Positions 1-6,305 are shown, counted from the stretch's first letter. The stretch is 54,060 bases of DNA from a virus (IMGVR_UViG_3300037280_000066:1-54060); one strand, 5' to 3'. The notes: generated by a model from the sequence alone, not told the origin. Made by a program: numbers and translations.

Positions 1-18
1 ATTGAAATTCAGTAAACA

Positions 19-154
19 AGGGATAGTGCAGAATAGAAGTTCTTCACTTTTAATGACGAGGTTGTGGGTTCGAGTCCCATCATGACAGGCTTTACGCTTG
101 TTGTGTAACTCAATTGGCAGAGTACGATAAAACGTCTGTTCGCTTTCCTTCCCC
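19..154 (+). ncRNA. Y-RNA-like unit 1 (YrlA-type permuted tRNA domain with Lys-like CUUUUAA loop)
   Basis: GGGA/TCCC outer stem and GAATAGA/TCTGTTC inner stem. Cargo: TCA-CTTTTAA-TGA, T arm GTGGG-TTCGAGT-CCCAT, closed acceptor CATGACAGGC/GCTTGTTGTG, D arm ACTC-AATTGGCA-GAGT. Confidence 0.85.
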
Positions 155-163
155 TATAAATAT

Positions 164-294
164 TTACTTGGCAGTACAGTTTAGAGTTACTTCTTGCTGA
201 AAAAGATACTAGCTCAATTGGTTAGAGCATCAACAGTGATATGTTGAAGATGGGGTTCGAGTCCTTTTTACTCTCAACGTTTTTCTCCAAGTAA
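164..294 (+). ncRNA. Y-RNA-like unit 2 (D-anticodon-T arms in canonical order, no acceptor stem)
   Basis: TTACTTGG/CCAAGTAA outer stem. D arm GCTC-AATTGGTTA-GAGC, hairpin TCAACA-GTGATA-TGTTGA, T arm GGGG-TTCGAGT-CCTT. Confidence 0.8.
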
Positions 295-301
295 GCAATT
301 T

Positions 302-372
302 TCCGTAATAGTTTAGTGGAAAAACCTGTGCATATGCATACACAGTCTCTAGTTCAAATCTAGATTACGGAG
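302..372 (+). tRNA. tRNA-like gene A with abnormal 10-nt anticodon loop
   Basis: Acceptor TCCGTAA/TTACGGA, D arm GTTT/AAAC, CTGTG-CATATGCATA-CACAG, T arm TCTAG-TTCAAAT-CTAGA; no encoded CCA. Confidence 0.7.
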
Positions 373-374
373 TC

Positions 375-511
375 ATTGGAAAGTGTAGTTAAGGCATACT
401 TCAAAGGGGACTGTGGGTTGTCAGTTCGAATCTGACCCTTCCGATTATCGGCAGGTAGCTCAATGGTAGAGCAATAGTATAAAAAAGAAGCCTTTACGTT
501 TTTCTTCCAAT
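375..511 (+). ncRNA. Y-RNA-like unit 3 (YrlA-type permuted tRNA domain)
   Basis: ATTGGAA/TTCCAAT outer stem. T arm GTCAG-TTCGAAT-CTGAC, closed acceptor CCTTCCGA-TTA-TCGGCAGG, D arm GCTC-AATGGTA-GAGC, residual anticodon stem ACTGT/ATAGT. Confidence 0.85.
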
Positions 512-532
512 ATTAAGTTTAAAGATTAAAAA

Positions 533-670
533 GCATTAGATAGTGTAGATATCAGTTACTTCCATTCAAAGGAAGAGACAGGGGTTCGAATCCCCTCGTC
601 AGGTCTTATCCTGATGTGGACAAGTGGTTAAGTCGCTTAAAATATACTGAAATCGTTTTTCTTCTAATGT
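533..670 (+). ncRNA. Y-RNA-like unit 4 (YrlA-type permuted tRNA domain)
   Basis: GCATTAGA/TCTAATGT outer stem, GATATCAGT/ACTGAAATC inner stem. T arm AGGGG-TTCGAAT-CCCCT, closed acceptor CGTCAGG/CCTGATG, D arm GAC-AAGTGGTTAA-GTC. Confidence 0.85.
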
Positions 671-677
671 TAGATAT

Positions 678-775
678 CCAGAGGTAATTCAATGGCAGAT
701 GCTTGGCACTATGTCAACTTATGTTGATAGCAACAACGCTAGGTGTATGGAGGGTTCGATTCCTTTCCCTTTGGT
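678..775 (+). tRNA. tRNA-like gene B with greatly extended anticodon arm
   Basis: Acceptor CCAGAGG/CCTTTGG, D-like arm, CTTGGC/GCTAGG enclosing a ~30-nt insert with inner hairpin GTCAAC/GTTGAT, T arm GAGGG-TTCGATT-CCTTT. Confidence 0.65.
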
Positions 776-776
776 T

Positions 777-843
777 TTAGAGATAATTCAGTCTGGTAGA
801 ATGCTTGACGGAGTGGTCGTGGGTTCGAATCCCACTCTCTAAT
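777..843 (+). tRNA. tRNA-like gene C with truncated anticodon arm
   Basis: Acceptor TTAGAGA/TCTCTAA, D arm ATTC-AGTCTGGTA-GAAT, mini-arm CTT-GACG-GAG, T arm GTGGG-TTCGAAT-CCCAC. Confidence 0.7.
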
Positions 844-850
844 TGTAAGT

Positions 851-920
851 TCCAGAATAGCCTAATGGTAGGACACCCTCATTACGGAGGGAAACGTAGG
901 TTCGATTCCTGCTTCTGGTG
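851..920 (+). tRNA. tRNA-like gene D with 6-nt anticodon loop
   Basis: Acceptor CCAGAA/TTCTGG (1:72 mismatch), D arm CCT/AGG, CCCTC-ATTACG-GAGGG, T arm GTAGG-TTCGATT-CCTGC. Confidence 0.7.
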
Positions 921-926
921 TGTAAA

Positions 927-1063
927 GAACATTTAGTAGTGTAGATATCAGTTACTTCCATTATCAGGACGAGAAGGTGGTTTAATTCCATCATCTGGCA
1001 TATACCAGATTAGTTTATTGATAAAACACGTAAAATACTGAAATTGATTTTCTCTAAATGTTC
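927..1063 (+). ncRNA. Y-RNA-like unit 5 (permuted tRNA domain, degenerate T and D loops)
   Basis: GAACATTTAG/CTAAATGTTC outer stem; 5' arm identical to unit 4. T arm GGTGG-TTTAATT-CCATC, acceptor ATCTGG/CCAGAT, D arm GTTT/AAAC. Confidence 0.8.
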
Positions 1064-1075
1064 AAAAAGTTTTCA

Positions 1076-1205
1076 ATTGTATAGGACAGTGCAGACTGTG
1101 GTTACTTCGGTTAAATAAAATTCTTATAAAATTTTTAAAGGTGGTTCAAATCCATCGAATCCCTTAAATGGGAACAAACCATAGCCGTTTTACTTCCTGT
1201 ACAAT
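1076..1205 (+). ncRNA. Y-RNA-like unit 6 (anticodon-like arm + T arm + small hairpin)
   Basis: ATTGTATAGGA/TCCTGTACAAT outer stem, GACTGTGGT/ACCATAGCC inner stem. AAAATT-CTTATAA-AATTTT, GGTGG-TTCAAAT-CCATC, TCCC/GGGA. Confidence 0.8.
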
Positions 1206-1220
1206 GATATAAGTTTAAAT

Positions 1221-1287
1221 TTTGGGTAGTGTTAGGTAAAGGGTTACTTCATTGGCGAAAAAACACCCTTCCTGCTTTTCTCCCAAA
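1221..1287 (+). ncRNA. Y-RNA-like unit 7 (minimal, scaffold only)
   Basis: TTTGGG/CCCAAA outer stem; TAGTGTTA..GTTACTTC and GCTTTTCT motifs; ~14-nt cargo. Confidence 0.75.
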
Positions 1288-1303
1288 TAAAGTTTCAAAT
1301 CTT

Positions 1304-1372
1304 GTTTGGTAGTGTATTTGAGAGTTACTTCAACTTTAAATGATAAAATACTCTCAAAGTTTTTCTCCAAAC
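1304..1372 (+). ncRNA. Y-RNA-like unit 8 (minimal, scaffold only)
   Basis: GTTTGG/CCAAAC outer stem; perfect inner stem TTTGAGAGT/ACTCTCAAA; short AT-rich cargo. Confidence 0.78.
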
Positions 1373-1391
1373 TAAAAATTACATAAAACAC

Positions 1392-1538
1392 TTGGGAAGT
1401 GTAGAAGTCGGTTACTTCAAATAAATAATTATAAGAATATGGGTAGCCAATGAGCTACGATTGAATCAAAAGTTACATAAAACAAATTGTAATAAAAGCA
1501 GGGCATAAGCCCAATAGCCGAATTCGATTTTCTCCCAA
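1392..1538 (+). ncRNA. Y-RNA-like unit 9 (non-tRNA, multi-hairpin cargo)
   Basis: TTGGG/CCCAA outer stem, GAAGTCGGT/GCCGAATTC inner stem. Hairpins GTAGC/GCTAC, TTACA/TGTAA, GGGC-ATAA-GCCC. Confidence 0.75.
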
Positions 1539-1554
1539 TAAAATTTATAAACCT

Positions 1555-1640
1555 TTAGGTAGTGTAAGAGTGGGTTACTTCAAAAATTTATTTATAATAT
1601 GAATCTGTGAAAACTTATACCCATTCTGCTTTTCTCCTAA
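1555..1640 (+). ncRNA. Y-RNA-like unit 10 (short AT-rich cargo)
   Basis: TTAGG/CCTAA outer stem; inner stem AGAGTGGGT/ACCCATTCT; both conserved motifs present. Confidence 0.75.
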
Positions 1641-1641
1641 T

Positions 1642-1740
1642 AAAAATTATAATATCATTTTAATAATTGAACAAAAATTGGAAATCTGCAAGTATTTTCA
1701 AGGCTTCTCTAGAGATTATTAAAATGATATTGTAATTTTT
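1642..1740. repeat. 26-bp inverted repeat enclosing 47 nt
   Basis: AAAAATTATAATATCATTTTAATAAT (1642-1667) vs ATTATTAAAATGATATTGTAATTTTT (1715-1740); the one difference is a U-G pair on the + strand. Confidence 0.85.
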
Positions 1741-1750
1741 TAAGTTTAAT

Positions 1751-1896
1751 AAGTCATTTAGTAGTGTAGATTAGAGTTATATCTTTCCCCGTTATATGTG
1801 GGGAAATAGCTTAATTGGTAGAGCGTTGAGTGTGAAAACTCAAAGGTGAGGTTCGAGTCCTTATTTAGTCTCTTATTGATTTTCTCTAAATGATTT
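1751..1896 (+). ncRNA. Y-RNA-like unit 11 (tRNA domain opened at the T-arm/acceptor junction)
   Basis: AAGTCATTTAG/CTAAATGATTT outer stem. Closed acceptor TTTCCCC/GGGGAAA, D arm GCTT-AATTGGTA-GAGC, TTGAGT-GTGAAA-ACTCAA, T arm GTGAGG-TTCGAGT-CCTTAT. Confidence 0.8.
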
Positions 1897-1916
1897 AAAA
1901 ATATGCAAAAAAAGTA

Positions 1917-1946
1917 TTGACAATACATATCCGTATAGGTTATACT
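1917..1946 (+). promoter_or_regulatory. SigA-type promoter of the Ro60 gene
   Basis: TTGACA-N18-TATACT with an upstream A-tract. Confidence 0.7.
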
Positions 1947-2016
1947 AAGAAGGTAAGATATTGAGGAAGTTTTCCTCCCAATAAAAAATTTAATAGTCGA
2001 AAGCGAGGTAATAATA

Positions 2017-3498
2017 ATGTCAAAGTTTAATCAAACAGCAAGAGAAGAAAAGTTACAAACCACTAATAAGTCAGGTGTTCCTGCTTATGCAATGGCTGAG
2101 AAAGACAAGTTAGTAACACAAGTACTTACATCTTTATTCAATGAAAAGAAATACTATGGTGATAACTCAAAAGAGATTATCCAAACAGTAAAATCAATTC
2201 TTGAACATGATGCAAAGTTCATTGCTAACCTAGCCCTATTTGCAAGAAATGAAATGCATTTGAGAACTATTTCACATGTATTAACATCAGAACTTGCAAA
2301 TCATCCAAATGGTAAGCAGTATGCTAGAGCAACAATCAACAAGGTTGTTGAAAGAGTTGATGATATGTCAGAAATCTTGGCTTATTCATTAGACAAATAC
2401 TCAAAGCCTATCGCAAATTCCATGAAGAAAGGTTTAGTAGATGCTTTCTTAAGATTTGATGAATACTCTCTTGCAAAGTACAACAAAGACAGTAAGGAAA
2501 TCAAACTTAAAGATATCCTTTGCTTAACTCACCCAAGACCTACTACTACAGCACAAAGCGATATGTTCAAGAGATTGATGGAAGGTAACCTTGAAGTACC
2601 AAAGACTTGGGAAACTGAGTTGTCTGCTAAGGGTAATACTAAGGCAGTATGGGAAAACTTGATTACTGAAAAGAAACTTGGCTACATGGCTATGATGCGT
2701 AACCTTCGTAACATAATCAAATCAGGAGCTTCGAATATGAATGAAGTTTATTCTTTCTTAGCAAATGAGGAAAGAGTATTAAAGAATAAGCAGTTACCTT
2801 TCAGATATTACTCAGCATACAAAGTGTTGACAAATGAAGGTCTTGCTACTTCAAAGATACTTGATACATTAGAAACTGCTTTAAAGTTAAGTTGTAAAAA
2901 CGTTCAGCCTTTAAGTGGTAAAACACTTATTGCAGTTGATACTTCTGGCTCAATGTCAAGTCCTGTTAGTGCTAAAAGTGATATGACTTGCGTAGAAATT
3001 GGTATACTTATGATGGCAATGGCAAATTACATCTGTGATGATTCAATCTCTGTTGCTTTTGACACTTCATTAAGAGATATCACATTACCTACAAGCAATG
3101 GTATCATATCTAATGCGAAGAGCGTTAGAAACACTGGTGGTGGTACAGATATTACTCTTCCAATACAACACTTGATTAATAAAAACATCAAAGTTGATAG
3201 AATCATTATGTTATCTGATAATGAAATCAACTGTGGTTGGGACTCAGGTAGAAGTGGTGGATGGGGTAGACAATCACAAACAAGCTGTCAGAACTTGGTT
3301 GACCAGTACAGAAAAACAATCAATCCTGATGTATGGGTTCATGCTATTGACTTACAGGGCTACGGCACTCAACAGTTCAAAGGTAAGAATACTAACATCA
3401 TCGCAGGTTGGTCTGAGAAGACTCTGGAATTCATCTCAATGGCTGAAAAAGGCTTTGGCAACATCGTTTCAACTGTAGAAAGTTACTACTTTAAGTAG
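2017..3498 (+). CDS. rsr: Ro60/TROVE-domain RNA-binding protein with C-terminal vWA domain
   Basis: TROVE motifs (FDEYSLAKYN, L.HP.P, TWETELS, LGYMAMMRNLRN, QLPFRYYSAY) followed by vWA MIDAS DTSGSM; 493 aa. Confidence 0.95.
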   Translation: MSKFNQTAREEKLQTTNKSGVPAYAMAEKDKLVTQVLTSLFNEKKYYGDNSKEIIQTVKSILEHDAKFIANLALFARNEMHLRTISHVLTSELANHPNGKQYARATINKVVERVDDMSEILAYSLDKYSKPIANSMKKGLVDAFLRFDEYSLAKYNKDSKEIKLKDILCLTHPRPTTTAQSDMFKRLMEGNLEVPKTWETELSAKGNTKAVWENLITEKKLGYMAMMRNLRNIIKSGASNMNEVYSFLANEERVLKNKQLPFRYYSAYKVLTNEGLATSKILDTLETALKLSCKNVQPLSGKTLIAVDTSGSMSSPVSAKSDMTCVEIGILMMAMANYICDDSISVAFDTSLRDITLPTSNGIISNAKSVRNTGGGTDITLPIQHLINKNIKVDRIIMLSDNEINCGWDSGRSGGWGRQSQTSCQNLVDQYRKTINPDVWVHAIDLQGYGTQQFKGKNTNIIAGWSEKTLEFISMAEKGFGNIVSTVESYYFK

Positions 3499-3520
3499 TA
3501 GTAACTCTACATACAATATA

Positions 3521-3549
3521 AAGAGAACTCGAAAGGGTTCTCTTTTTTA
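3521..3549 (+). terminator. Rho-independent terminator after rsr
   Basis: AAGAGAACTC-GAAA-GGGTTCTCTT followed by a T-run. Confidence 0.85.
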
Positions 3550-5771: not shown

Positions 5772-6305
5772 ATGAAAAAAGTAACCCATATAGTAAATTT
5801 GTTAGCAGGAGCAGGATGTGGGAAGTCAACTATGGCTTCTAGGATATTTGCAGAATTGAAAGACCTGAATATAAATTGTGAATTAGTAAGTGAATTTGCA
5901 AAAGATTTAGTTTGGGAAGAAAGAACTGCAACATTCAGTAATGAGCTTTATATATTTGCAAAACAACAACACAGGATACACAGATTAATTGGTAAAGTTG
6001 ATGTTATTGTTACTGATGCACCATTGTTGTTGAAGTTGATGTATATGCCTAAAGATTTAGATTTTAGTAATCTTGTTTTAGATATTCATAACAAATACAA
6101 TAATATGAATTTTGTTTTGAATAGGGTAAAACCTTACAATCCAATTGGAAAAAATCAAGATGAAGATGAAGCTAGGGTATATGATTCAAAAATCAAGTCT
6201 TTATTAGACCTTCATGATATTAAATATAATATTGTAAATGGTAATAAAGAAGGAGCTATGGAAGTTGTAACAAAAGTTTGCAATTATTTACAAATACAAA
6301 GATAG
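5772..6305 (+). CDS. P-loop kinase/ATPase (AAA_28, NadR-kinase-like)
   Basis: Walker A GAGCGKST, EFAK, VIVTD. Confidence 0.75.
   Translation: MKKVTHIVNLLAGAGCGKSTMASRIFAELKDLNINCELVSEFAKDLVWEERTATFSNELYIFAKQQHRIHRLIGKVDVIVTDAPLLLKLMYMPKDLDFSNLVLDIHNKYNNMNFVLNRVKPYNPIGKNQDEDEARVYDSKIKSLLDLHDIKYNIVNGNKEGAMEVVTKVCNYLQIQR

What the first reader, a model, noticed from the sequence alone, without database searches (positions are those of the whole stretch)
19..3498. Modular Y-RNA array: 11 copies of one covarying scaffold with swappable cargo, next to a phage Ro60
Seen: 11 units (starts 19, 164, 375, 533, 927, 1076, 1221, 1304, 1392, 1555, 1751) share 5' NAGTGYA-N7-GTTACTTC and 3' GHTTTTCT. The outer and ~9-bp inner stems differ in sequence but stay paired (TTTGAGAGT/ACTCTCAAA, AGAGTGGGT/ACCCATTCT, GACTGTGGT/ACCATAGCC, GATATCAGT/ACTGAAATC), so structure is under selection while the internal-loop bases are conserved, as expected for a protein-binding site. 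Known: bacterial Ro60 (Rsr) binds Y RNAs through a bulged stem formed by the 5' and 3' ends; rsr loci usually have one or two (Yrn1, YrlA/YrlB), and the distal module tethers effectors such as PNPase. Inference: one Ro60 ring is loaded with about 11 different RNAs, a constant handle with variable cargo. The handle does not match the metazoan-type Ro site as I recall it, and I know of no described array this large.
Basis: partly seen in the sequence, partly recalled or inferred. Interest (0 to 1): 0.95.

Follow-up and report, generated by a model that had tools for sequence, protein, structure and literature searches.

The report
Twelve Y-RNA genes beside phage Ro60
A 182-kb uncultured phage carries twelve back-to-back small-RNA genes that share one conserved docking stem but have different heads (many imitate tRNA), directly upstream of its Ro60 gene. 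It is the largest example I found of a Ro60/Y-RNA arrangement that also occurs, with 1-8 RNAs, in many phages and in Clostridia RNA-repair operons.

Summary
All 11 units are real, and a 12th lies just upstream across the overlapping contig ends. They share a two-stem handle: RGYGNA on the 5' side, an invariant UUACUUC after the inner stem, and GNUUUUCU on the 3' side. Both stems covary strongly (89% of cells paired against about 45% in slid controls; 17 of 19 pairs compensatory). The adjacent ORF is a genuine Ro60 (TROVE + vWA, MIDAS motif).

A covariance model of the handle finds it almost only beside Ro60 genes:
- 26 of 27 positive loci from the pattern and protein scans have Ro60 within about 2 kb.
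- None of about 214 model-negative pattern loci has Ro60.
- 5 of 6 sampled phage records, four of them cultured (crAss001, Xylella phage Usme, csAssE-Sib, phiLo), carry it.
- 19 of 20 Clostridia-order rsr loci carry it; in the four of these genomes checked, rtcB follows rsr.

The units are therefore a Clostridia/phage-type branch of YrlA/YrlB Y RNAs, below Rfam's YrlA cut-off. Arrays of 2-8 are common, so 12 is an extreme case, not a new principle. Ro60 binding, expression and function are inferred, not shown. This scan has reported similar arrays of 4-9 units in other genomes. I found no published description of such arrays. Verdict: new variant of a known kind, moderate interest.

The parts
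15..158 (+). U1: handle plus YrlA-type permuted tRNA-like cargo (T arm, closed stem-loop, D arm)
   Evidence: R1 91.9 bits, R2 84.6 bits. Rfam YrlA 29.3 bits, below the cut-off. Fold.
163..295 (+). U2: handle plus tRNA-order cargo (D arm, anticodon-like arm, T arm) with an aberrant anticodon loop
   Evidence: R1 90.1 bits. ARAGORN calls tRNA-??? at 202-275. Fold.
301..374 (+). Free-standing tRNA-like gene between U2 and U3, with a non-canonical anticodon loop
   Evidence: ARAGORN tRNA-???. Rfam tRNA 42.3 bits.
372..514 (+). U3: handle plus YrlA-type permuted tRNA-like cargo
   Evidence: R1 84.7 bits. This is the best Rfam YrlA match in the window, 34.4 bits against a cut-off of 69.
532..671 (+). 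U4: handle plus YrlA-type cargo; same inner stem as U5 and as a unit in relative L104
   Evidence: R1 104 bits, R2 98.2 bits. Alignment.
677..920 (+). Three free-standing tRNA-like genes (~677-775, 777-843, 851-920) with abnormal anticodon arms
   Evidence: Rfam tRNA 46.5 and 40 bits. ARAGORN tRNA-??? at 850-921. The element at 677-775 rests on sequence reading only.
928..1062 (+). U5: handle plus YrlA-type cargo
   Evidence: R1 90.5 bits. Fold.
1078..1203 (+). U6: handle plus a T arm and one hairpin, no D arm
   Evidence: R1 80.4 bits. Rfam tRNA partial match, 24.4 bits.
1218..1290 (+). U7: near cargo-less handle with a 9-nt spacer variant
   Evidence: R1 53 bits. Fold.
1301..1375 (+). U8: cargo-less handle, the minimal unit
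   Evidence: R1 70.9 bits. Fold.
1388..1542 (+). U9: handle plus three small hairpins, no tRNA-like motif
   Evidence: R1 91.3 bits. Fold; motif scan.
1551..1644 (+). U10: handle plus a short A/U-rich hairpin
   Evidence: R1 72.9 bits. Fold.
1642..1740 (+). 27-bp A/T-only hairpin followed by a T run, between U10 and U11; possibly a terminator, attenuator or RNase III site
   Evidence: MFE -28.9 kcal/mol, z -5.2. Matches itself as an inverted repeat.
1753..1894 (+). U11: handle plus hairpin plus tRNA-order cargo with an 8-nt anticodon-like loop
   Evidence: R1 68.9 bits. Rfam tRNA 39.8 bits at 1800-1871.
1917..1946 (+). Sigma-70-like promoter of rsr (TTGACA-18-TATACT)
   Evidence: 11 of 12 consensus positions match.
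1958..1983 (+). Collapsed handle-like hairpin in the rsr 5' leader; its 3' half resembles the unit 3' ends (GTTTTCCTCCCAAT)
   Evidence: 3' box match at 1969-1976. Fold. Function unknown.
2017..3498 (+). Ro60/Rsr gene, 493 aa (TROVE + vWA with MIDAS DTSGS)
   Evidence: Pfam. Translation. Nearest solved structure is phiLo Ro60, 9KOP/9L5Y, E 3.7e-33. 51-60% identical to Clostridia-order Rsr.
3520..3545 (+). Intrinsic terminator after rsr
   Evidence: 11-bp stem followed by a T run.

Best explanation
The region is an operon-like array of twelve Y-RNA genes of the bacterial YrlA/YrlB kind, placed in front of the phage's own Ro60 gene. Shown: each RNA closes its 5' and 3' ends into the same irregular helix. 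That helix has an outer stem, conserved RGYGNA opposite GNUUUUCU, a ~9-bp inner stem, and an invariant single-stranded UUACUUC. The stems covary while the boxes stay fixed. This helix family occurs almost only next to Ro60 genes, in phages of several host phyla and in Clostridia-order rsr loci (rtcB follows rsr in the four genomes checked). Inferred: the handle is the docking site for the Ro60 ring, positionally equivalent to P1, internal loop, P2 and YUAY of YrlA. The array would be transcribed early by host RNA polymerase, from consensus-like promoters just upstream, as one precursor that may read on into rsr. The precursor would be cut in its A/U-rich linkers and at the tRNA-like elements, and the ends trimmed back to the Ro60-protected stems. 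This would give twelve distinct Ro60 RNPs. The variable heads are five YrlA-type permuted tRNA mimics, two tRNA-order mimics, one T-arm-only unit and four with little or no cargo. They would set what each RNP touches, such as tRNA-recognising enzymes, exoribonucleases or host tRNA-targeting nucleases, or simply gate the Ro60 cavity. They probably work with the phage's large RNA-repair gene set.
For: Anatomy and covariation. On 72 units from 24 loci, 89.6% of cells pair against 43-50% in slid controls, and all 19 pairs show compensatory change. UUACUUC is 90-100% conserved per position.

Specificity: R2 hits only the Ro60 locus in the whole 182-kb phage and in three bacterial MAGs of 1.4-5.4 Mb.

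Linkage starting from the RNA: 23 handle-positive viral loci, of which 22 have Ro60 within about 2 kb; 4 of 4 positive genome loci have it; none of about 214 model-negative pattern loci do.

Linkage starting from the protein: 5 of 6 sampled phage records with Ro60 carry units within 1 kb of the gene, as do 19 of 20 Clostridia-order Ro60 loci.

Ro60 is the only neighbour gene shared across loci. Loop boxes are more alike within a locus than between loci (0.78 against 0.68; 0 of 300 permutations), while inner stems are not (0.488 against 0.485). This fits tracking of a locus-specific protein partner rather than recent duplication.

Kinship with YrlA: sub-threshold but significant Rfam YrlA matches fall on the long units. 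In the four Clostridia-order genomes checked, the RNAs sit in rsr-rtcB loci like Salmonella rsr-yrlBA-rtcBA.

Co-transcription: there is no strong + strand promoter or credible terminator inside 1-1900, and TTGACA-17-TATACT lies 20 nt before U1. In relatives the units abut real tRNA genes by 0-6 nt. M. smegmatis YrlA and YrlB are processed from one precursor (PMC4201824).

Context: RlaP, CCA enzyme with HD domain, a Pnkp-like kinase-phosphatase-ligase, a second RNA ligase and NADAR-Pth2.
Against: The published YrlA Ro motif GNCGAAN0-1G is absent. Rfam YrlA scores are 29-34 bits in the window against a cut-off of 69. It is not known which conserved box, RGYGNA/GNUUUUCU or UUACUUC, contacts Ro60. 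Rfam's own alignments place YrlA P1 on the inner stem, whereas I place it on the outer stem. The A/T hairpin with a T run at 1642-1740 may end transcription before U11. One handle-positive fragment (L094) shows no Ro60. Vibrio phage Va1 has Ro60 without this handle.
Confidence: 0.75

Rival explanations
1. The handles are Ro60-binding sites that act in cis on a long leader or operon RNA, for example to autoregulate rsr or to titrate Ro60, rather than being released as twelve separate small RNAs.
For: There are no strong internal promoters or terminators in 1-1900. In several relatives the last unit ends 15-100 nt before the Ro60 start. A collapsed handle-like hairpin sits in the rsr 5' leader at 1958-1983.
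Against: rsr has its own near-consensus promoter after the array. In five loci (L006/L007, L017, L054, L068, L125) the units lie downstream of rsr. Units abut real tRNA genes that must be excised. Characterised YrlA and YrlB are discrete processed RNAs (PMC4201824).
Confidence: 0.08
2. The handle is a processing or stability scaffold for tRNA-like RNAs that is recognised by a host factor (an RNase III-type or RNase P/Z-linked enzyme, or another RNA chaperone). Its position beside Ro60 would reflect shared RNA-repair operons, not direct binding.
For: Units are interleaved with tRNA genes in relatives. In csAssE-Sib two annotated tRNAs lie inside handle units. The known Ro motif GNCGAAN0-1G is missing.
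Against: Ro60 is the only gene shared by loci from phages of different host phyla. Cargo-less units keep every conserved box. About 40% of family units have no tRNA-like motif. Loop boxes vary by locus, as expected for a locus-encoded partner rather than a universal host factor.
Confidence: 0.1
3. The region is a decaying phage tRNA gene cluster whose repeats are remnants without function.
For: The tRNA-like elements have broken anticodon arms. The phage keeps a separate intact set of 26 tRNAs at 133.8-139.2 kb.
Against: Compensatory changes maintain both stems in 12 of 12 units. Conserved boxes are shared with 60 or more units in other genomes. Four units have no tRNA-like part at all.
Confidence: 0.02

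Closest known systems
YrlA and YrlB Y RNAs with Rsr (Ro60) in Salmonella Typhimurium and Mycobacterium smegmatis; Rfam RF02553; Chen et al. 2014, PMC4201824
   Same: Both are encoded next to Ro60. In both, the 5' and 3' ends form a long stem interrupted by an asymmetric internal loop, and a YUAY (here UUAC) follows the stem. The long members carry a permuted tRNA-like domain (T arm, closed stem-loop, D arm), and shorter partners lack it. The known RNAs are processed from one precursor. Clostridia-order relatives with the same handle sit in rsr-rtcB loci.
   Different: The 5' box is RGYGNA rather than GNCGAAN0-1G. There is an invariant UUACUUC and a U-rich 3' loop strand. Rfam scores are 29-50 bits against a cut-off of 69. 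There are 12 genes rather than 1-2. Two units carry tRNA-order cargo. The phage has no RtcB.
Thermus phage phiLo Ro60 with Yrl1 and Yrl2 (PDB 9KOP, 9L5Y; PMC12135203)
   Same: Both are phage-encoded Ro60 proteins. phiLo Ro60 is the nearest solved relative of this protein (E 3.7e-33). Y-like RNAs lie beside the gene, and that paper proposes hijacking of host PNPase.
   Different: The published Yrl1 and Yrl2 were picked upstream of the gene by a CGAA motif. My model instead finds a cargo-less unit with UACUUC directly after the phiLo Ro60 stop codon (L260:6514-6583). phiLo has two RNAs, not twelve.
Deinococcus radiodurans Yrn1/Yrn2 with Rsr and PNPase (the RYPER machine; as summarised in PMC4201824)
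   Same: A Y RNA acts as a tether between Ro60 and an effector. Yrn1 has tRNA-like arms in D-then-T order, as in U2 and U11.
   Different: The stem sequence is different. No effector has been identified here, and I did not search the phage for a PNPase gene.
Metazoan Y RNA families and nematode stem-bulge RNAs (from my own knowledge)
   Same: Both have several paralogous RNAs that share a conserved Ro-binding bulged stem and differ in their loops.
   Different: The metazoan genes are separate Pol III genes with the GGUCCGA motif and no tRNA mimicry. They are not a tandem operon.

Membership tests
Bacterial Y RNA, YrlA/YrlB type (Chen et al. 2014; Rfam RF02553) | Encoded within about 4 kb of a Ro60/TROVE gene | tested here: met
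   The units end 125 nt to about 2.3 kb upstream of ORF 2017-3498, which is TROVE + vWA_Ro60. The same linkage holds in 26 of 27 loci from the scans and in 19 of 20 Clostridia-order loci.
Bacterial Y RNA, YrlA/YrlB type (Chen et al. 2014; Rfam RF02553) | 5' and 3' ends pair into a long stem interrupted by an internal loop or bulge | tested here: met
   MFE folds of all 12 units. Covariation.
Bacterial Y RNA, YrlA/YrlB type (Chen et al. 2014; Rfam RF02553) | tRNA-like domain with T arm, closed stem-loop and D arm (YrlA members) | tested here: met
   Met for U0, U1, U3, U4 and U5. U2 and U11 have tRNA order. U6 has only a T arm. U7-U10 have no such domain, like the shorter YrlB-type partners.
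Bacterial Y RNA, YrlA/YrlB type (Chen et al. 2014; Rfam RF02553) | GNCGAAN0-1G motif in the 5' strand, the proposed Rsr contact | tested here: not met
   The consensus at the equivalent place is RGYGNA (A 85%, G 97%, U 88%, G 99%, N, A 92%).
Bacterial Y RNA, YrlA/YrlB type (Chen et al. 2014; Rfam RF02553) | Conserved YUAY directly after the stem | tested here: met
   UUAC within UUACUUC is 90-100% conserved per position in 72 units.
Bacterial Y RNA, YrlA/YrlB type (Chen et al. 2014; Rfam RF02553) | Reaches the Rfam RF02553 gathering score of 69 bits | tested here: not met
   No hit at gathering threshold. The best window scores are 34.4, 29.3 and 28.4 bits. Relatives score 33-50 bits.
Bacterial Y RNA, YrlA/YrlB type (Chen et al. 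2014; Rfam RF02553) | Physically bound by Ro60 (co-immunoprecipitation or EMSA) | not testable with these tools
   No RNA-protein prediction tool was available, and no sequencing-run tool was offered for this window.
Ro60/Rsr protein | TROVE HEAT-repeat ring plus C-terminal vWA domain with a MIDAS motif | tested here: met
   PF05731 E 2.5e-32 and PF25045 E 2.6e-11. DTSGS in the translation. Full-length match to phiLo Ro60 structures.
rsr-yrlBA-rtcBA RNA-repair operon | RtcB ligase gene adjacent to rsr | tested here: not met
   There is no PF01139 match anywhere in the phage genome. RtcB lies directly downstream of rsr in four Clostridia-order relatives. The phage has Pnkp-like and Rnl-type ligases instead.
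Functional tRNA genes | Canonical 7-nt anticodon loop and cloverleaf | tested here: not met
   ARAGORN calls the array's tRNA-like elements tRNA-??? with 2-nt 'anticodons'. The Rfam tRNA alignments show shortened or enlarged anticodon arms. The phage's 26 canonical tRNAs lie elsewhere.

The most novel reading that the evidence does not exclude
The phage has expanded the Y-RNA partner of Ro60 into a combinatorial adaptor library. In this reading, one ring protein is programmed by twelve interchangeable RNAs whose heads imitate different tRNAs or tRNA parts. The phage could then decoy, sense or repair damage from several host tRNA-targeting defence nucleases at once, or direct host exonucleases to chosen RNAs. 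Array size would track the defence repertoire of the host.
Probability: 0.15. Interest if true: 0.8.

Novelty: new variant of a known kind. Interest (0 to 1): 0.55.

Why it matters
What bacterial and phage Ro60 does is still poorly understood, and published Y-RNA partners number one or two per locus. This work defines a handle signature and a covariance model that Rfam's YrlA model misses at its cut-off. It shows that the handle marks Ro60 loci from Clostridia to crAss-like, Xanthomonas and Thermus phages, and that the RNA partner can be multiplied up to twelvefold with diversified heads. Because the same handle occurs in culturable systems (crAss001 on Bacteroides intestinalis, Xanthomonas phages, Clostridia with rsr-rtcB loci), Ro60-RNA recognition and the role of the heads become directly testable. 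It also flags likely mis-annotations in GenBank records: tRNA genes that are Y-RNA cargo, and ORFs called over Y-RNA genes.

Tried and rejected
- blastn of window 1-3500 against 50,697 phage records found no match, so no close cultured relative exists at the DNA level.
- Rfam at gathering threshold returned only two tRNA hits. At E up to 10 on positions 1-2100, nothing beyond tRNA, sub-threshold YrlA, short tmRNA T-arm fragments and chance-level hits appeared. In particular, no Dictyostelium Class I RNA match appeared, although earlier notes of this scan suggested a resemblance for other phage handles.
- My first loose regex scan of the whole genome was too permissive and uninformative, apart from revealing U0.
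- Three Wolin-lab reviews could not be read: PMC10870794 and PMC6047535 are not held, and no supplement text is held for Chen et al. 2014. Per-phage YrlA counts in that paper's Table S2 are therefore unchecked.
- The decayed tRNA cluster reading was rejected on covariation.
- A sarcin-ricin or kink-turn reading of the internal loop was considered from the sequence and dropped, because there are no tandem G-A pairs and no GAA strand.
- I made no attempt to predict a Ro60-RNA complex, because the complex tool takes proteins and small ligands only.

Full report
**1. Observation**

Window 1-1900 contains no + strand ORF of 50 aa or more. The stated 5' pattern occurs ten times on the + strand between 25 and 1783: six exact matches and four with 1-3 mismatches. 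U7 carries a 9-nt spacer variant. Every unit ends with the 3' box.

The window is the start of a 182,060-bp IMG/VR virus record, 92% complete by CheckV. The record's last 130 nt repeat window 1-129. Reading across that junction shows a 12th unit, U0, at genome 181720-181860. It is followed by a TTGACA-17-TATACT promoter about 20 nt before U1.

Independent MFE folds of the units all return the same scaffold:
- an outer stem of 5-10 bp;
- a bulged nucleotide;
- an invariant A-U/G-C step;
- an internal loop, UGYA opposite GNUUUU;
- a ~9-bp inner stem;
- the cargo.

On the 12-unit alignment A1, 88.8% of pair cells are standard pairs against 43-48% when partners are slid. Seventeen of 19 pairs show changes on both sides, and no shuffle out of 500 reaches the observed values.

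**2. The neighbouring gene**

ORF 2017-3498 is a Ro60. It matches TROVE (E 2.5e-32) and the Ro60 vWA domain (E 2.6e-11), and it carries the MIDAS motif DTSGS. Its nearest solved relative is Thermus phage phiLo Ro60 (9KOP/9L5Y, E 3.7e-33, residues 15-473), ahead of D. radiodurans Rsr and Xenopus Ro60. It has its own promoter at 1917-1946 and a terminator at 3520-3545.

**3. The handle is a Ro60-linked RNA family**

I built covariance model R1 from the 12 units using only the handle pairs.

Starting from the RNA:
- R1 was positive in 20 viral and 4 genome loci.
- tblastn and PF05731 searches found a Ro60 gene within about 2 kb in all of these except L094, a 14%-complete fragment.
- None of the roughly 214 model-negative pattern loci has Ro60.

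Starting from the protein:
- The three IMG/VR Ro60 relatives (L005, L006, L007) carry units beside the gene.
- Five of six sampled GenBank phage records with Ro60 also do: Xylella phage Usme has 4 units upstream; Bacteroides phage crAss001 has 4 or more in the unannotated gap after gp96; phage csAssE-Sib has 3; phiLo has 1; uncultured phage LR745206 has 1. Vibrio phage Va1 has none.

In bacteria:
- In the bacterial order of a Clostridiaceae MAG that carries the handle, 22 of 301 genomes have TROVE.
- Nineteen of the 20 fetched loci carry 1-5 units within 1.5 kb.
- The window's Ro60 is 51-60% identical to these proteins over its full length.
- In the four of these genomes checked, RtcB lies directly downstream of rsr. 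This is the arrangement of the Salmonella rsr-yrlBA-rtcBA operon (PMC4201824).

Further specificity tests:
- Whole-genome searches with the second-round model R2 hit only the Ro60 locus in the phage and in three bacterial MAGs.
- Of all ORFs flanking the array, only Ro60 has homologues across the handle-positive loci.

**4. Family-wide anatomy**

On 72 units from 24 loci, 89.6% of cells pair against 43-50% in slid controls, and all 19 pairs show compensatory change. The conserved single-stranded or non-canonically paired positions are:
- 5' box: A 85%, G 97%, U 88%, G 99%, N, A 92%;
- after the inner stem: U 100%, A 90%, C 99%, U 97%, U 99%, C 100%;
- 3' box: G 82%, N, U, U, U 100%, U, then C-U pairing with the 5' A-G.

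The A-U step changes to G-C in 10 units.

Loop boxes are more alike within a locus than between loci (0.78 against 0.68; 0 of 300 label permutations). Inner-stem sequences are not (0.488 against 0.485). So the units of one locus are not recent copies, yet their boxes track the locus, as expected if they co-evolve with the adjacent protein. This evidence is modest and indirect.

**5. Relation to YrlA**

The long units receive significant but sub-threshold Rfam YrlA matches: 34.4, 29.3 and 28.4 bits here, and 33-50 bits in relatives, against a cut-off of 69. The matches are driven by the T arm, stem-loop and D arm module.

I read the handle as positionally equivalent to YrlA in this way:
- outer stem = P1;
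- UGYA/GNUUUU = the YrlA internal loop;
- inner stem = P2;
- UUAC = the conserved YUAY that Chen et al. place after the stem.

The published Ro motif GNCGAAN0-1G is not present. Rfam's own alignments register the stems differently, so this mapping is my inference.

**6. Cargo**

In this phage:
- U0, U1, U3, U4 and U5 are YrlA-type (permuted).
- U2 and U11 have tRNA order, like D. radiodurans Yrn1, with abnormal anticodon-like loops.
- U6 has a T arm only.
- U9 has three unrelated hairpins.
- U7, U8 and U10 are nearly bare handles.

Across the family, roughly half of the units have an early T arm, a few have tRNA order, and 30 of 72 show no tRNA-like motif.

Units per locus by R2:

| Locus | Units |
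|---|---|
| This phage | 12 |
| L104 | 8 |
| L071 | 7 |
| L049, L118 | 6 |
| L009 | 5 |
| Several others | 4 |
| Many others | 2-3 |

Twelve is the largest count I saw.

**7. Transcription and processing (inferred)**

No strong + strand promoter or credible terminator lies inside 1-1900. Five consensus-like promoters lie in the 900 nt upstream of U1, three of them TTGACA-17-TAAGAT with a TG extension. Linkers between units are 8-20 nt and A/U-rich.

In relatives the units abut bona fide tRNA genes by 0-6 nt (for example L104: tRNA-Cys, unit, tRNA-Pro, three units, tRNA-Gln). Here the corresponding places hold four tRNA-like genes with broken anticodon arms, and the 26 canonical tRNAs lie at 133.8-139.2 kb.

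This points to an early polycistronic precursor resolved by tRNA-type and A/U-directed endonucleases. M. smegmatis YrlA and YrlB are likewise processed from a single precursor, and YrlA can be cut by RNase P (PMC4201824). In crAss001 the TROVE gene belongs to the earliest transcription module (PMC8375218).

**8. Function (inferred)**

The window also encodes:
- RlaP;
- a CCA-adding enzyme with an HD domain;
- a metallophosphoesterase;
- a Pnkp-like kinase-phosphatase-Rnl1 fusion;
- a second RNA ligase;
- a NADAR-Pth2 fusion;
- a PARP;
- a NAPRTase.

The most economical reading is a Ro60 RNP set working with RNA (tRNA) repair or protection during infection. The heads would act as tethers, gates or decoys. 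Which of these applies cannot be decided here.

**9. Prior knowledge**

Chen et al. 2014 report 355 YrlAs in 254 bacteria and 22 phages, about 1.3 per genome. The phiLo study describes two Yrl RNAs (PMC12135203). A jumbo-phage survey mentions TROVE with a tRNA-like partner only in passing (PMC7824862). Full-text searches found no description of arrays.

Earlier notes of this scan describe similar handle-and-cargo arrays of 4-9 units beside Ro60-like genes in other phages. The scan has therefore seen this kind before on other DNA.

**10. Verdict**

This is a real, well-supported Y-RNA array. It is a new variant, in handle signature and in size, of a known kind. Binding, expression and function are untested.

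Noticed in passing
genome G000 181720-181860 (L002:1290-1430), outside the window: A 12th unit (U0, YrlA-type) lies upstream of U1. The contig's last 130 nt repeat window 1-129, so the record is circularly permuted or has a short terminal repeat, although IMG/VR classes it as linear.
   Followed up: yes
L002:535-1481 (genome about 180,965-181,911): Five near-consensus sigma-70 promoters sit in about 900 nt of non-coding DNA just upstream of the array. Three are TTGACA-17-TAAGAT with a TG extension, spaced about 100-125 nt apart. This looks like an early-promoter bank, or possibly further small RNA genes.
   Followed up: partly
window 1642-1740: A 27-bp hairpin made only of A-U pairs (z -5.2), followed by a U run, separates U10 from U11. 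It could be a terminator, an attenuator or an RNase III site.
   Followed up: partly
window 1958-1983: The rsr 5' leader contains a collapsed handle-like hairpin whose 3' half resembles the units' 3' ends. It may be a relic of a 13th unit or a Ro60 autoregulatory site.
   Followed up: no
L260:6514-6583 (Thermus phage phiLo, MH673673): A cargo-less handle unit with UACUUC lies 11 nt after the phiLo Ro60 stop codon and overlaps the start of the annotated ORF phiLo_25. The published Yrl1 and Yrl2 were taken from upstream of the gene, so this candidate partner RNA appears not to have been tested.
   Followed up: partly
L261:5905-6627 (Bacteroides phage crAss001, MH675552): Four or more handle units lie in the 900-nt unannotated gap after the TROVE gene gp96. 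One element (6084-6227) looks like a tRNA with normal acceptor ends whose anticodon-arm position carries the handle's 5' box.
   Followed up: partly
L257:4636-4917 (phage csAssE-Sib, OR575929): The annotated tRNA-Tyr and tRNA-Lys genes lie inside two handle units directly upstream of the Ro60 gene. They may be Y-RNA cargo rather than free tRNAs.
   Followed up: partly
window 12085-32731: A large RNA-repair and NAD gene set is present: RlaP, a CCA enzyme with HD domain, a metallophosphoesterase, a DHHA1 protein, a NADAR-Pth2 fusion, NAPRTase, a Pnkp-like kinase-phosphatase-Rnl1 fusion, a second RNA ligase and a WGR-PARP. There is no RtcB anywhere in the phage.
   Followed up: partly
genome G000 133,789-139,160, minus strand: A separate cluster of 26 canonical tRNA genes lies far from the Y-RNA array, whereas relatives such as L104 interleave real tRNAs with the units.
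   Followed up: partly
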